DNA from: a phage
DNA: 64,000 nt
Reading direction: 5' to 3' (one strand)
NCBI GenBank assembly: GCA_014685065.1
Contig: GCA_014685065.1_3930.1
Below are positions 5,723 to 21,909 of the stretch, piece after piece (position 1 is the stretch's first letter; each line of letters opens with the position of its first letter). The notes beneath the pieces were generated by a model. The model was given only the letters and a program-made list of their open reading frames with translations. It was not told where the DNA came from and did no database searches. Made by a program: the position numbers and the translations under genes.

Positions 5723-13738
<8,016 letters not shown>

Positions 13739-13739
<1 letters not shown>

Positions 13740-13978
13740 TACATTTTTCCTGCTCTTCTAAGTTCGTTGTAAGCAATTTCCTCTTTATACGACCTCTGAA
13801 TCTCAAGAAATTGTCTCAATGATAGTAAATCAGAGAATGTCATAGCAAAGAGTTGGTCAAGTGTTTCTTTACACCCTTCCATACCATAAATAGCAAGCAC
13901 AAATTTCATCTCGTCTGCTTCTTCATAGGTTGCCTCTACAGCAGCATCAGTTAGTGGTGTCTGTAGAGTGTTACCCAT
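13739..13978 (-). CDS. tail assembly chaperone C-terminal extension (reached by -1 frameshift from upstream ORF)
   Basis: 79-aa ORF in -1 frame relative to 13981-14379; no stop between slippery site and this ORF. Confidence 0.45.
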
Positions 13979-13980
13979 GT

Positions 13981-14379
13981 TTACTGAGAAGTTAGGCTTT
14001 TGAAAATGCTTGCTTCGAAAAAACTTCCGAAGTTTGCCTCCAGCGCAAATGCTAAGTAATCAATAAATTCACCGTAGTTTGCTTGGAAGTACGTATCAAT
14101 ATTAAGTGGGAAGTCGTCAACAGTTGCCCCTTGAAATAATAAGGTAGCCATCTCTTCAAGGTTAATTTCTTCAATTCTGTCAAAACAAGCTTCAACAAGC
14201 TCTTTAAATGGAACCATTGGAGCTTCCTTCTTACCCTTGTCAGTCAGACTTGATAGCATCTGTGCAAAGGTTGGAACAACAATTTTACCCAACTTCATAG
14301 ACATCTTAATACCATCTCTTGCCCCAAGCAGAACGATATTTACTTTCTTACCATTAATTACTCTAGATTCTGTTTTCAT
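13981..14379 (-). CDS. tail assembly chaperone
   Basis: 132 aa; between tube and tape measure genes; contains slippery heptamer near its 3' end. Confidence 0.5.
   Translation of the reverse strand: MKTESRVINGKKVNIVLLGARDGIKMSMKLGKIVVPTFAQMLSSLTDKGKKEAPMVPFKELVEACFDRIEEINLEEMATLLFQGATVDDFPLNIDTYFQANYGEFIDYLAFALEANFGSFFEASIFKSLTSQ
14017..14023 (-). other. candidate -1 programmed ribosomal frameshift site (U UUU UUC)
   Basis: Minus-sense AGT TTT TTC in frame of 13981-14379; -1 frame stays open into 13739-13978. Confidence 0.45.
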
Positions 14380-14402
14380 TGTGATTCCTTAATACTTTTA
14401 AA

Positions 14403-14441
14403 AGAAACAAAAAAGGGGAAGACCTTTTAAAGTCTCCCCCT
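14403..14441 (-). terminator. rho-independent terminator after tail tube gene
   Basis: Minus-sense hairpin GGGGGAGAC-TTTAAAAG-GTCTTCCCC followed by UUUUUUGUUUCUUU. Confidence 0.6.
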
Positions 14442-14452
14442 TATAGGATTTA

Positions 14453-14899
14453 TTAAACACTTGACGCTGGAATTGTAGAAGTGTAGTCTAGCTTCTCACA
14501 ACCAAAAATCCAAGTTTTAGAGTTCTGGTCACGACCAAGTTCAATCTGTGGTAATTCCTGCAACCAAGCATTAATACCAGTTGCCAGAACAGAGCCTGAT
14601 GGGTCGTAGATTACGAAGTTAGAAGAGATATCTTCTTCAAGTTCCATATTGTCTTGTTTAGCTTGAATTGCAGAAAGCATCTGGTTAGAGAGAGAAGTCT
14701 GCATTAACTCAATCTCAATAGTACCTGTCTTGTCTGCATTTCTTGTCAGAGCAACTTGACCACCTGCACCAACAACTGGTGTCACAAGCGGTGATGTTCT
14801 CTGTAGACGCAAGAATGAATCTGGGGCAAAGCCTTCAATGGCAATACCATTCCAGCTACATACAACGTCTTTAGGGGAATATTGCTGATACATAGCCAT
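14453..14899 (-). CDS. tail tube protein
   Basis: 148 aa; directly downstream of sheath gene, followed by strong terminator. Confidence 0.5.
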   Translation of the reverse strand: MAMYQQYSPKDVVCSWNGIAIEGFAPDSFLRLQRTSPLVTPVVGAGGQVALTRNADKTGTIEIELMQTSLSNQMLSAIQAKQDNMELEEDISSNFVIYDPSGSVLATGINAWLQELPQIELGRDQNSKTWIFGCEKLDYTSTIPASSV

Positions 14900-14914
14900 T
14901 CCAATTTACCTCTA

Positions 14915-16267
14915 TTATTCGTAAGCCACTGTACCTTTCAAGTCAACATCCAAGATAGCCCCTGCTAAGATACCTGCGAAGGTAACATCTTTCAGGATAC
15001 GAGCTTTCTTGTCTGCCAAAGCAACTTGAGAGGCTTTAGGAACATTAACTGTGTAAGATGACAGGAAGTTTCTGTTGACTGCTCTTTGTAGAGAGGTTTC
15101 AATGACTTGACGAATACGGGTAATACCAGTATCATCATAAGTAATCTTACCACCCTTCTGGTTAATTAGCAAGTCTCTCAGAGAAGTTTTCAGGTCTGAT
15201 TCTAACCAGTCAACGCCACGGACGATATCAATCCATTCCCCACCAGAAGTAATCCCTCTACGAACCACTGGAACACCACCATCAAGGTCAATAAAGTTAC
15301 AGTGACGTACATCTAAAGCAGACTTCTGAATACTTGTCAGAGGTCTCTGATTAGATGGTTGTAGAGAAGCTGCTACACCAGTTAGCTGAGCATTACCCCA
15401 AGCAATTGAACCTGCATCATATGGAGCACCATAAGCAATGTATGCCATCTCTGGGTAGTCTTCTGCTGCTGCGTGATGCCACAAGCAAACTGTACGAGTG
15501 TACATACTCTTAGCAAGCTGTGCTGGAACATCATTTGCACTGGCTAATTCTGTACCTTGCAGGGCTGTTACATCGGAGTTAGCTGTAAAGAAGATTTTCT
15601 TGCGAGCCTGAATCTCAGAAGCCATTGCTAAGACAAACTGTTGAGTTCTGTCTTCTGCTGCAATGAAATACCAGTCAGTAGAGTAAGCTTCGATAGCTGC
15701 CAGAGCAGTTGATGCTGTATCGGCAGTTGTACTTGCAATATACACAGTCTGTGCTGTAGTTGTTACTTTCACAAAGTCATTATCACCAGCTTTGGTAATA
15801 ATCATTGTGGCAGAGCCATTGCTACCAGTTACGTTCACAGAAACCTTATCTTTGATTGTTGGGTCAGCTTCAATCTGTGTTTTAAACTGTTGCAACACGT
15901 TTTCAGCAGTGTCTTCAGCTTGCGCTGTATACTGATATGGTTGAGAAATTCCACCGCCAGCAGCTACAGTAATTGAGTAGTCTGTACTTTCAGCAACGGC
16001 ATTAGGAATTGATACAGTGTACTGCATAGCACGTCTACCAATATAAAGCTGAGTTACTTTAGGAGTCTGACTCCAAAGTTGTTTAGCAGCCTTATATGCA
16101 GCAGAGTTTTCATCGAAATCTTCAGCAACTTCAGTTAAGGAAGTGTAACCACGGACTCTTTCTTCAAAGTTATCTGTTGAAGCTAAGAATAGTGGCAAAC
16201 CAAAACCTTCTCTTGTAGTTCCTGCGGTGTTCAATGTAATATCTACATTAACAATTGGATTCCACAT
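14915..16267 (-). CDS. tail sheath protein
   Basis: 450 aa; sheath-like C-terminal region (GGEWIDIVRGVDWL); sheath-tube-chaperone-tape measure order. Confidence 0.6.
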   Translation of the reverse strand: MWNPIVNVDITLNTAGTTREGFGLPLFLASTDNFEERVRGYTSLTEVAEDFDENSAAYKAAKQLWSQTPKVTQLYIGRRAMQYTVSIPNAVAESTDYSITVAAGGGISQPYQYTAQAEDTAENVLQQFKTQIEADPTIKDKVSVNVTGSNGSATMIITKAGDNDFVKVTTTAQTVYIASTTADTASTALAAIEAYSTDWYFIAAEDRTQQFVLAMASEIQARKKIFFTANSDVTALQGTELASANDVPAQLAKSMYTRTVCLWHHAAAEDYPEMAYIAYGAPYDAGSIAWGNAQLTGVAASLQPSNQRPLTSIQKSALDVRHCNFIDLDGGVPVVRRGITSGGEWIDIVRGVDWLESDLKTSLRDLLINQKGGKITYDDTGITRIRQVIETSLQRAVNRNFLSSYTVNVPKASQVALADKKARILKDVTFAGILAGAILDVDLKGTVAYE

Positions 16268-21076: not shown

Positions 21077-21409
21077 CTATTTGTTTAAATCTACAGAGAC
21101 TGAAGAGATAACATAGATACCTTCTTCAGCGAAGAATTGAGGTTTGCTAAGAGCACCAGTTGCCACGCATTTATCGTTAGCATCCCACAAGCTATAGTGT
21201 GAGACCGTTGCAGAAGCTGGAACAGTAATATTAACTGTATCTTCTGAGGCAATTAAGCCATTATCCGGTTCAGAAAAATAAATAGCCACTGGCTGAGTAA
21301 CCTTATTTGCTGTAGGGTCTGCCGTTGGGTCTACATTGTGTAAAATAATAGTCGTTGGGGTTAGCGTGGCGAGGATTTTATTCTTACCATCAATAGTTAA
21401 TGTTCCCAT
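21077..21409 (-). CDS. hypothetical head-associated protein
   Basis: 110 aa ORF. Confidence 0.4.
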   Translation of the reverse strand: MGTLTIDGKNKILATLTPTTIILHNVDPTADPTANKVTQPVAIYFSEPDNGLIASEDTVNITVPASATVSHYSLWDANDKCVATGALSKPQFFAEEGIYVISSVSVDLNK

Positions 21410-21909
21410 TAATTAAACCTTACTTTTTGTTTAAGGACTGTTGAATGGTTACCAGATTCATCTACCACATTTACAATCATATCATATACTTTGCCTTTGA
21501 CAAGTACTTTGTAATCATTTTGTGAAAAAATGTATTCAAGTCTGTTTGTTTCTTTATTAACTGTCATTGGAGATTGAAATGCAGTGTCGAGGGTAATGAA
21601 AGCGGCTTCAATGCTATTAACATTGATACGTTTATTCTCGCAGTTATATAACTTTACACCCAAAAGGCATGAACTGTCAAATGGAATTTTAACAATTTCA
21701 CTACAATTTCCTAAAATAAACGGTTTTCCACTCATTGGTGCATCAAGTAACCTGCAAATAGTGAAAACGTCAGAGGTTCCACCATCACTTACATAACCTG
21801 AAAGGCTGACCCTTGAGCCAGCCTCTACAGATAATTTGTCAGTGATAATAAGAACACCTCTATACGAATGCACTCGTGTAGCATTTGAAATAGAGATAAC
21901 TTCAGCCAT
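21409..21909 (-). CDS. hypothetical head-associated protein
   Basis: 166 aa ORF; start overlaps portal stop. Confidence 0.4.
   Translation of the reverse strand: MAEVISISNATRVHSYRGVLIITDKLSVEAGSRVSLSGYVSDGGTSDVFTICRLLDAPMSGKPFILGNCSEIVKIPFDSSCLLGVKLYNCENKRINVNSIEAAFITLDTAFQSPMTVNKETNRLEYIFSQNDYKVLVKGKVYDMIVNVVDESGNHSTVLKQKVRFN

What the first reader, a model, noticed from the sequence alone, without database searches (positions are those of the whole stretch)
13739..14379. Tail assembly chaperone pair with a canonical -1 slippery heptamer
The upstream chaperone ORF contains U UUU UUC (plus coordinates 14017-14023, minus strand). Shifting -1 there gives an uninterrupted frame into the downstream 79-aa ORF, which would produce a long fusion chaperone analogous to lambda G/GT and P2 E/E'.
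Basis: partly seen in the sequence, partly recalled or inferred. Interest (0 to 1): 0.45.

Follow-up and report, generated by a model that had tools for sequence, protein, structure and literature searches.

The report
Felix O1 tail chaperone frameshift site
This is the standard programmed -1 frameshift that lets a Felix O1-type phage make a short and a long tail-assembly chaperone from one gene pair; it is real and strongly conserved, but already annotated in near-identical phages, so it is ordinary.

Summary
On the minus strand, T TTT TTC lies at 14023-14017 in the X XXY YYZ phase of the 132-aa ORF (13981-14379), 36 nt before its stop. The -1 frame is open from there to the stop at 13739, through the 79-aa ORF, which predicts a 213-aa fusion.

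The window is a Felixounavirus, and its chaperone is 100% identical to Felix O1 ORF158. The pair sits between the tail tube gene and the tape measure gene. The upstream ORF matches Pfam Phage_TAC_15, and both ORFs match PHROG tail-assembly-chaperone families.

The heptamer sits at the same Phe-Phe position in all 58 related loci examined (T TTT TTT in one), down to 26% protein identity and up to 65% G+C. Each has an 80-123 aa -1 extension. Several lineages have no start codon ahead of the conserved extension. Synonymous variation is zero at the heptamer codons, against about 0.52 codon identity elsewhere.

I found no significant or conserved downstream RNA structure. An upstream GGAGG is present but is not conserved across the family.

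The frameshift is already annotated as a joined CDS in Salmonella phage Meda (97.5% identical) and in Citrobacter phage Michonne, and it is stated in the Moogle and Michonne genome announcements. I found no experimental demonstration.

Verdict: interpretation supported, already known, low interest.

The parts
14915..16267 (-). Tail sheath gene (450 aa). Context only: it marks the start of the tail module.
   Evidence: phrog_205 tail sheath, 1.6e-123; Pfam DUF3383. Annotated as tail sheath in the Meda and Michonne records.
14453..14899 (-). Tail tube / virion structural protein gene (148 aa), directly upstream of the chaperone pair.
   Evidence: phrog_280, 1.2e-47; Pfam KPP10_Orf10. It lies between the sheath gene and the chaperone gene.
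14403..14442 (-). Intrinsic-terminator-like hairpin (13 bp stem, 6 G-C pairs) plus a T run, between the tube gene and the chaperone gene.
   Evidence: Terminator scan. A 'terminator' feature is annotated at the equivalent place in the Meda and Michonne records.
13981..14379 (-). Tail assembly chaperone ORF, the zero-frame product (132 aa, lambda gpG-like role). It has its own Shine-Dalgarno sequence, AAGGA, at 14390-14386.
   Evidence: Pfam PF21822 Phage_TAC_15, 71 bits against a cut-off of 22; phrog_1613, 2.9e-48. 100% identical to Felix O1 ORF158. Sequence read.
14037..14041 (-). Internal Shine-Dalgarno-like GGAGG, 13 nt 5' of the heptamer. A possible dnaX-type stimulator; this is speculative.
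   Evidence: Built from the minority codons CTG (14% of Leu) and GAG (33% of Glu). Only 5 GGAGG occur inside about 42 kb of coding sequence. It is replaced by GAA codons in the Erwinia, Hafnia, Yersinia and phiTE lineages, and codons 109-118 show no excess synonymous conservation.
14017..14023 (-). Slippery heptamer T TTT TTC (U UUU UUC), in X XXY YYZ phase, 36 nt before the zero-frame stop.
   Evidence: Present in 58/58 related loci, as T TTT TTT in Alteromonas phage PT11-V22. Synonymous identity is 1.00 at its three codons. Michonne's annotated slippage coordinate falls inside the homologous heptamer.
13981..14016 (-). Dual-coding overlap. The zero frame reads EASIFKSLTSQ* and the -1 frame reads RSKHFQKPNFSV.
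   Evidence: Synonymous identity is 0.78, peaking at 0.94, against 0.52 for the body of the gene. For the Erwinia phages, blastn aligned only query 346-386, around the slip site, at 92.7% identity.
13739..14017 (-). The -1-frame extension (92 aa plus stop; lambda T-like part). It includes the 79-aa ORF called at 13739-13978. Its stop overlaps the tape measure ATG by one base (TAATG).
   Evidence: phrog_4963 'tail assembly chaperone', 2.8e-55. No Shine-Dalgarno sequence lies before the ATG at 13978, and that ATG is not conserved in other lineages. The extension is conserved as protein among Ounavirinae-like lineages.
11511..13739 (-). Tape measure protein gene (742 aa), directly downstream.
   Evidence: Pfam TMP_3, 2.2e-17; phrog_4036.

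Best explanation
The two ORFs are the tail assembly chaperone pair of a Felix O1-type myovirus.

Most ribosomes translate the 132-aa chaperone and stop at 13981. A minority slip back one base on U UUU UUC (14023-14017), where the P-site UUU and A-site UUC tRNAs re-pair on UUU UUU. These ribosomes then read CGA AGC... in the -1 frame to the stop at 13739, which makes a 213-aa fusion protein.

By analogy with lambda gpG/gpGT and P2 E/E+E', the shared N-terminal part would bind the tape measure protein. The frameshift-only C-terminal part would recruit the tube protein. This would set a fixed low ratio of long to short chaperone for tail assembly.

Shown here:
- the sequence anatomy
- the family assignment
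- family-wide selection on the heptamer and on the -1 frame
- the lack of an independent start in many lineages

Inferred:
- that the shift is ribosomal
- its efficiency
- the binding partners
- the requirement for tail assembly

No downstream RNA stimulator appears to be involved.
For: - Anatomy and phase.
- Gene order sheath, tube, chaperone pair, tape measure.
- Family: Pfam Phage_TAC_15 at 71 bits (cut-off 22); phrog_1613 and phrog_4963, both labelled tail assembly chaperone.
- The heptamer is in phase at the homologous Phe-Phe position in 12/12 GenBank loci. These include Vequintavirinae at 26-28% identity and an Alteromonas phage, with -1 extensions of 92-123 aa.
- It is also present in 46/46 IMG/VR loci, with extensions of 80-103 aa.
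- It is retained in relatives of 57-65% G+C, where third-position T is only 0.08-0.19 and TTC is the preferred Phe codon.
- Synonymous codon identity is 1.00 at the heptamer codons and 0.78 (peak 0.94) in the overlap, against 0.52 upstream.
- No ATG, GTG or TTG precedes the conserved part of the extension in phiEa21-4, Alteromonas PT11-V22, phiTE, L042, L048, L051, L052 and L055. The window's own ATG has no Shine-Dalgarno sequence.
- Annotated as a joined CDS, 'Tape measure chaperone frameshift product', in Meda and as 'ribosomal slippage (47149)' in Michonne. Stated in PMC4319497 and PMC4591319.
- U_UU.U_UU.C is frameshift-prone in E. coli without a stimulator, and H_HH.U_UU.Y motifs are among the most efficient (PMC4066793).
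Against: - I found no experimental demonstration (junction peptide or reporter assay) for Felix O1-type phages. The 2010 Felix O1 genome and proteome paper does not mention a frameshift.
- No stimulatory element is established. The 94 nt from the heptamer onward fold no better than shuffles (z = -0.22). The consensus structure across 8 lineages is essentially nil (-0.11 kcal/mol). No Rfam family matches.
- In this particular genome the downstream ORF has an ATG 2 nt after the upstream stop, so re-initiation cannot be excluded from this sequence alone.
- The Phe-Phe residues are themselves conserved, so part of the heptamer's conservation is amino-acid constraint. The synonymous-site result argues that this is not the whole story.
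Confidence: 0.9

Rival explanations
1. These are two ordinary, independently translated genes. The 79-aa ORF would be initiated at its own ATG (13978), for example by termination-reinitiation coupling at UAAACAUG, and the heptamer would be incidental.
For: - The ATG at 13978 lies 2 nt after the upstream stop.
- Most GenBank records annotate two separate CDSs, for example Felix O1 ORF158/ORF159 and radambza.
Against: - No Shine-Dalgarno sequence lies upstream of that ATG.
- The ATG is absent or displaced in other lineages. phiEa21-4, Alteromonas PT11-V22, phiTE and the high-G+C contigs have no start codon before the conserved core.
- The -1 frame is open from the heptamer in 58/58 loci.
- Synonymous sites are frozen at the heptamer.
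Confidence: 0.04
2. The same 213-aa fusion would be made by transcriptional slippage. RNA polymerase would add one U in the U6 run, rather than the ribosome slipping.
For: - The site is a homopolymeric T6 run (T7 in the Alteromonas phage).
- A one-base insertion gives the identical protein.
- A weak hairpin plus U run was flagged just upstream, at 14043-14027.
Against: - From general knowledge, efficient transcriptional slippage normally needs longer runs, about 7-9 or more.
- The run is held at exactly six T followed by C in 57 of 58 loci rather than lengthening.
- The motif is always in the X XXY YYZ phase and is a measured ribosomal -1 shifter in E. coli.
- This reading cannot be excluded by sequence alone.
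Confidence: 0.05
3. The slippery-looking heptamer and the downstream ORF in the -1 frame co-occur by chance, and no fusion is made.
For: In a 39% G+C genome, in-phase XXXYYYZ heptamers are common: 67 in long ORFs, about 0.5 expected per 132 codons. One-base gene overlaps automatically place the next gene in the -1 frame.
Against: - Conserved in 58/58 loci across 26-100% identity and 39-65% G+C.
- Zero synonymous variation at the site.
- TTTTTTC is otherwise avoided on the coding strand.
Confidence: 0.01

Closest known systems
Annotated tape-measure-chaperone frameshift of Felix O1-like phages: Salmonella phage Meda MH586731 (AXY86324.1), Citrobacter phages Michonne NC_028247 (YP_009177317.1) and Moogle
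   Same: It is the same genes, the same heptamer and the same -1 extension. Meda is 97.5% identical in DNA and carries a two-piece joined CDS spanning exactly the equivalent of 14379-13739. Michonne's slippage coordinate falls within the homologous TTTTTTC. The frameshift is described in PMC4319497 and PMC4591319.
   Different: Nothing of substance differs. The window's chaperone is the Felix O1 allele, 100% identical to ORF158, whose own GenBank record and 2010 paper do not annotate the frameshift.
Phage lambda gpG/gpGT (Levin et al. 1993; Xu, Hendrix and Duda 2004, 2013, 2014)
   Same: - Two overlapping ORFs lie between the major tail gene and the tape measure gene.
[quoted passage not shown]
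- The long product is made only by frameshifting.
- No RNA structure is evident.

The role is as summarised in PMC5009743.
   Different: - The slippery sequence differs. Lambda uses G GGA AAG (from memory) and this phage uses U UUU UUC.
- The protein family differs. This one is Pfam Phage_TAC_15, and no sequence similarity to lambda gpG was shown.
- This phage has a contractile tail (myovirus), not a siphovirus tail.
- The efficiency here is unknown.
Phage P2 E/E+E' (Christie et al. 2002, from memory)
   Same: A myovirus chaperone pair between the tube gene and the tape measure gene, with a -1 frameshift on a T-rich run.
   Different: The protein family is unrelated as far as was tested. In P2 the extension has been shown genetically and biochemically, and here it has not.
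E. coli dnaX -1 frameshift (A AAA AAG with an upstream Shine-Dalgarno sequence and a downstream hairpin)
   Same: In this window a GGAGG lies 13 nt 5' of the heptamer, within the spacing reported (from memory) to stimulate -1 shifts.
   Different: - There is no downstream hairpin.
- The Shine-Dalgarno-like element is not conserved in several lineages.
- The outcome differs: here the shift extends the product, while in dnaX it truncates it.

Membership tests
Conserved tail-assembly-chaperone -1 frameshift (lambda G/GT type; Xu, Hendrix and Duda 2004) | Two ORFs located between the major tail (tube) gene and the tape measure gene. | tested here: met
   Order on the minus strand: sheath 14915-16267, tube 14453-14899, 132-aa ORF, 79-aa ORF, tape measure 11511-13739.
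Conserved tail-assembly-chaperone -1 frameshift (lambda G/GT type; Xu, Hendrix and Duda 2004) | [quoted passage not shown] | tested here: met
   T TTT TTC at 14023-14017, 36 nt before the stop. The -1 frame is open for 92 codons, to 13739.
Conserved tail-assembly-chaperone -1 frameshift (lambda G/GT type; Xu, Hendrix and Duda 2004) | The downstream part lacks its own translation initiation signals. | tested here: met
   No Shine-Dalgarno sequence lies before the ATG at 13978. In 8 of the 17 lineages checked there is no start codon at all before the conserved core.
Conserved tail-assembly-chaperone -1 frameshift (lambda G/GT type; Xu, Hendrix and Duda 2004) | The slip site and the two-frame arrangement are conserved among homologues. 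| tested here: met
   58/58 loci. Synonymous identity is 1.00 at the heptamer against 0.52 background. The site is retained in relatives of 57-65% G+C.
Conserved tail-assembly-chaperone -1 frameshift (lambda G/GT type; Xu, Hendrix and Duda 2004) | The fusion protein is actually made at a low fixed ratio. Both products are needed for tail assembly and are absent from virions. | not testable with these tools
   This needs proteomics, reporter assays and genetics. I found no such data for Felix O1-type phages.
Pfam PF21822 Phage_TAC_15 | A whole-protein score above the curated gathering threshold. | tested here: met
   71 bits against a cut-off of 22, E = 1.7e-19, covering profile positions 1-124 of 127.
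PHROG 4963 (frameshift-extension part of the chaperone) | A full-length match of the 79-aa ORF to the family profile. | tested here: met
   E = 2.8e-55, positions 1-79 of 79.
dnaX-type stimulated -1 frameshift | An upstream Shine-Dalgarno-like element at about 10-14 nt. | tested here: inconclusive
   GGAGG is present 13 nt upstream in the window and is rare inside genes. It is not conserved in the Erwinia, Hafnia, Yersinia and phiTE lineages, and codons 109-118 show no excess synonymous conservation.
dnaX-type stimulated -1 frameshift | A stable stem-loop or pseudoknot 5-9 nt 3' of the heptamer. | tested here: not met
   z-score -0.22 against shuffles. Consensus fold -0.11 kcal/mol with no covariation. 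No relevant Rfam match.

The most novel reading that the evidence does not exclude
Two readings remain open.

First, the U UUU UUC site embedded in the N-[FY]-x-x-F-F motif may be an essentially universal feature of the whole Phage_TAC_15 family that needs no RNA stimulator. It spans Ounavirinae, Vequintavirinae, an Alteromonas myovirus and uncultured relatives of 57-65% G+C. The extension domain behind it has diverged beyond BLASTP recognition between three lineage groups. Many deposited records still miss the frameshift, including Felix O1 itself, phiEa21-4, FV3, phiTE and PT11-V22.

Second, in the Felix O1 branch specifically, the internal GGAGG 13 nt upstream may tune the shift in the manner of dnaX.
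Probability: 0.3. Interest if true: 0.2.

Novelty: already known. Interest (0 to 1): 0.1.

Why it matters
The practical value is annotation. Felix O1 and most of its roughly 300 sequenced relatives are deposited with two separate small ORFs, or with the second one missing, and they should carry a joined ribosomal-slippage CDS of 213 aa. Biologically it is one more well-supported instance of the conserved tail-chaperone frameshift. It is a clean case of an apparently stimulator-free U UUU UUC site held invariant across a wide range of G+C content. It does not open a new question.

Tried and rejected
- Downstream stimulatory RNA. Folding the 94 nt from the heptamer onward gave z = -0.22. The hairpin about 48 nt downstream is too far away and is not kept in Michonne. 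The consensus fold of 8 lineages gave no structure and no covariation. Rejected.
- Rfam scan of 13500-14600 at E <= 1. It returned only two chance hits far below the gathering scores.
- Upstream Shine-Dalgarno-like GGAGG as a conserved stimulator. It is locally striking but not conserved across the family. I kept it only as speculation.
- PDB sequence-profile search with the chaperone alignment. It found nothing significant. The best hits were a designed helical repeat protein and coronavirus nsp8 at E of about 0.01-0.04, and a phage-like 'ORF19' (5ir0) at E = 0.25.
- The search for related loci with the 9-sequence alignment failed because no stretch was conserved enough. I repeated it with 6 closer sequences.
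- The second heptamer with a long -1 extension, A AAG GGG at 10729-10723. It turned out to be the Shine-Dalgarno sequence of the next gene, whose ATG is at 10714.
- I deliberately did not run the large protein-database searches or structure prediction, because the answer would not change the verdict.

Full report
**What is in the sequence.** Reading the minus strand, the 132-aa ORF (14379-13981) ends ...GCA AAC TTC GGA AGT TTT TTC GAA GCA AGC ATT TTC AAA AGC CTA ACT TCT CAG TAA. The run TTTTTTC occupies 14023-14017. Its first T is the third base of the Ser codon, so the motif is in the canonical X XXY YYZ phase: P-site UUU, A-site UUC.

Translating from the heptamer in the -1 phase gives FFRSKHFQKPNFSVNMGNTLQ...RRAGKM* with no stop until 13739. 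This is the frame of the 79-aa ORF (13978-13739). The stop of that ORF overlaps the ATG of the next gene by one base. A -1 shift would therefore give a 121 + 92 = 213-aa fusion.

**What the genes are.** The window is a Felixounavirus. A 1.45-kb query around the site is 99.7% identical to Felixounavirus LF110P1 and 99.6-99.7% identical to phages XTG1 and KhF1, and 295 phage records match it. The 132-aa protein is 100% identical to Felix O1 ORF158.

The minus-strand order is as follows:
- tail sheath (14915-16267; phrog_205, 1.6e-123)
- tube or virion structural protein (14453-14899; phrog_280)
- a terminator-like hairpin (14442-14413)
- the 132-aa ORF (Pfam Phage_TAC_15, 71 bits against a cut-off of 22; phrog_1613, 2.9e-48)
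- the 79-aa ORF (phrog_4963 'tail assembly chaperone', 2.8e-55)
- the tape measure protein (11511-13739; Pfam TMP_3; phrog_4036)

This is the position where tailed phages carry their frameshifted chaperone pair.

**Is it more than chance?** Within this one genome the case is only moderate. Long ORFs contain 67 in-phase XXXYYYZ heptamers in 16,844 codons, about 0.5 per 132 codons. However, only two of them open a long -1 frame. The other is A AAG GGG at 10729-10723, which is simply the Shine-Dalgarno sequence of the following gene. TTTTTTC itself is depleted: 12 in the window against 30.1 +/- 5.5 in shuffles, with only two on the coding strand.

The decisive evidence is comparative.
- In 12 GenBank loci the heptamer sits at the homologous Phe-Phe position, and the -1 frame stays open for 92-123 codons. 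In all except phiTE it ends at or within a few tens of nucleotides of the tape measure gene start. These loci span Felixounavirus, Suspvirus, Mooglevirus, Kolesnikvirus, a Hafnia phage, a Yersinia phage, an Alteromonas phage, and the Vequintavirinae phages phiTE and FV3 at 26-30% protein identity. The Alteromonas phage has T TTT TTT.
- All 46 IMG/VR loci recovered with the chaperone alignment show the same arrangement. They include contigs of 57-65% G+C, where third-position T is only 0.08-0.19 and TTC is the preferred Phe codon.
- In a nucleotide alignment of nine lineages, G TTT TTT is the only invariant run.
- For the Erwinia phages, blastn aligned only a 41-nt island around the slip site, at 92.7% identity.
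- In a codon alignment of nine lineages, synonymous codon identity is 0.52 for codons 1-108 and 0.54 for the ten codons before the site. It is 1.00 (108 of 108 pairs) at the three heptamer codons, and 0.78 with a peak of 0.94 in the dual-coded overlap.

**Can the downstream part be made on its own?** In the window, the ATG at 13978 has no Shine-Dalgarno sequence. In phiEa21-4, Alteromonas PT11-V22, phiTE and several uncultured lineages there is no ATG, GTG or TTG before the conserved core of the extension. The phiEa21-4 record accordingly leaves that stretch unannotated.

The extension is conserved as protein within three groups: Ounavirinae-like lineages (E down to 1e-29), Vequintavirinae, and the high-G+C contigs. 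It is not detectably conserved between the groups. The N-terminal chaperone domain and the slip site are shared by all. This fits an extension that co-evolves with its partner, by analogy the tube protein.

**Stimulatory elements.** The 94 nt from the heptamer onward fold no better than shuffled sequence (z = -0.22). A consensus fold over eight lineages has essentially no energy and no covariation. Rfam gives nothing relevant.

One local feature is a GGAGG at 14041-14037, 13 nt 5' of the heptamer. It is built from minority codons (CTG 14%, GAG 33%), and only five GGAGG lie inside about 42 kb of coding sequence. From memory, this spacing is the range that stimulates -1 shifting in dnaX. However, the Erwinia, Hafnia, Yersinia and phiTE lineages have GAA there, and the ten upstream codons show no excess synonymous conservation. 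It is at best a lineage-specific modulator, and I treat it as speculation.

U_UU.U_UU.C is among the motifs that shift at more than 0.1% in E. coli without any stimulator, and H_HH.U_UU.Y motifs are among the most efficient there (PMC4066793). A stimulator-free, low-level shift is therefore plausible. The review PMC5009743 describes low-level -1 frameshifting and a 30:1 product ratio for lambda G/GT.

**Mechanism, and what is inferred.** Shown: the anatomy, the family membership, purifying selection on the heptamer and on the -1 frame, and the dependence of the extension on upstream translation in many lineages. Inferred from the lambda G/GT paradigm as reviewed in PMC5009743: tandem tRNA slippage on U UUU UUC, a low fixed ratio of the 213-aa product to the 132-aa product, the N-terminal part binding the tape measure protein, the extension recruiting tube subunits, and neither product remaining in virions.

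Transcriptional slippage on the U6 run would give the identical protein and cannot be excluded by sequence. I rate it unlikely (about 0.05), because the run is short and is held at six T plus C rather than lengthening.

**Comparison with what is known.** This exact frameshift is already in the public record. Salmonella phage Meda (97.5% identical over the pair) carries a two-piece joined CDS, 'Tape measure chaperone frameshift product', spanning the equivalent of 14379-13739. Citrobacter phage Michonne carries 'ribosomal slippage (47149)', a coordinate that falls inside the homologous TTTTTTC.

[quoted passage not shown] 2004 (PMC4591319).

The original Felix O1 record and paper do not annotate it. 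Most records list two separate ORFs. I found no experimental verification in the searchable literature.

**Verdict.** It is a known kind of element and is already annotated for this very phage group, so novelty is 'already known' and interest is low (0.1). The residual value is correcting annotation across Ounavirinae and Vequintavirinae records, and a tidy example of an invariant, apparently stimulator-free U UUU UUC site across a wide range of G+C content.

Noticed in passing
window 10723-10729 (minus strand): An in-phase A AAG GGG heptamer lies 9 nt before the stop of the 265-aa gene after the tape measure, and its -1 frame runs into the next gene (10373-10714). On reading the sequence, it is the Shine-Dalgarno sequence (AAGGGGA, 7 nt before the ATG at 10714) of that next gene. 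The -1 relationship follows from the one-base TAATG overlap. It is not a recoding candidate.
   Followed up: yes
window 14403-14442 (minus strand): A strong terminator-like hairpin (13-bp stem, AAGGGGGAGAC/GTCTTCCCCTT) plus a T run sits between the tube gene and the chaperone gene. The equivalent place is annotated 'terminator' in the Meda and Michonne records. It may lower transcription of the chaperone and tape measure genes relative to the sheath and tube genes.
   Followed up: partly
window, whole; coding (minus) strand copies at 14017-14023 and 21524-21530: TTTTTTC is strongly depleted in the window: 12 observed against 30.1 +/- 5.5 in dinucleotide-preserving shuffles. Only two copies are on the minus strand, where most genes lie. 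The second copy is out of the X XXY YYZ phase in the 166-aa ORF at 21409-21909.
   Followed up: partly
window 14027-14043 (minus strand): A weak hairpin (6 pairs including G-U pairs, CTGGAG/CTTCGG) lies immediately 5' of the U run and was flagged by the terminator scan. It overlaps the GGAGG element. It did not look conserved in phiEa21-4 on inspection of the alignment.
   Followed up: partly
L004 1270-1505 (Erwinia phage phiEa21-4); L008, L009, L010 (Alteromonas PT11-V22, phiTE, FV3); L005 (Felix O1): The deposited annotations miss the frameshift. phiEa21-4 leaves the extension region unannotated. PT11-V22, phiTE and FV3 call only a short 'hypothetical protein' from an internal start. Felix O1 lists ORF158 and ORF159 separately. 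All of them carry the in-phase heptamer and an open -1 frame.
   Followed up: yes
GenBank MG065664.1 (hit H47) and MG065666.1 / MG065672.1 (hits H139, H140): Records labelled 'Campylobacter phage' (A132, A12a, A141) match this region. A132 is 97.7% identical in DNA to this enterobacterial Felixounavirus. A12a and A141 match the chaperone protein at the same 28.9% identity and coordinates as the rV5-like E. coli phages. The host labels look doubtful.
   Followed up: no
GenBank KT184313-KT184316 (phages KhF1-3, XTG1), region equivalent to window 13500-14950: These records annotate a 'direct repeat sequence4 posible binding site of StbAB' feature within the tube, chaperone and tape measure region. 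I did not examine it.
   Followed up: no
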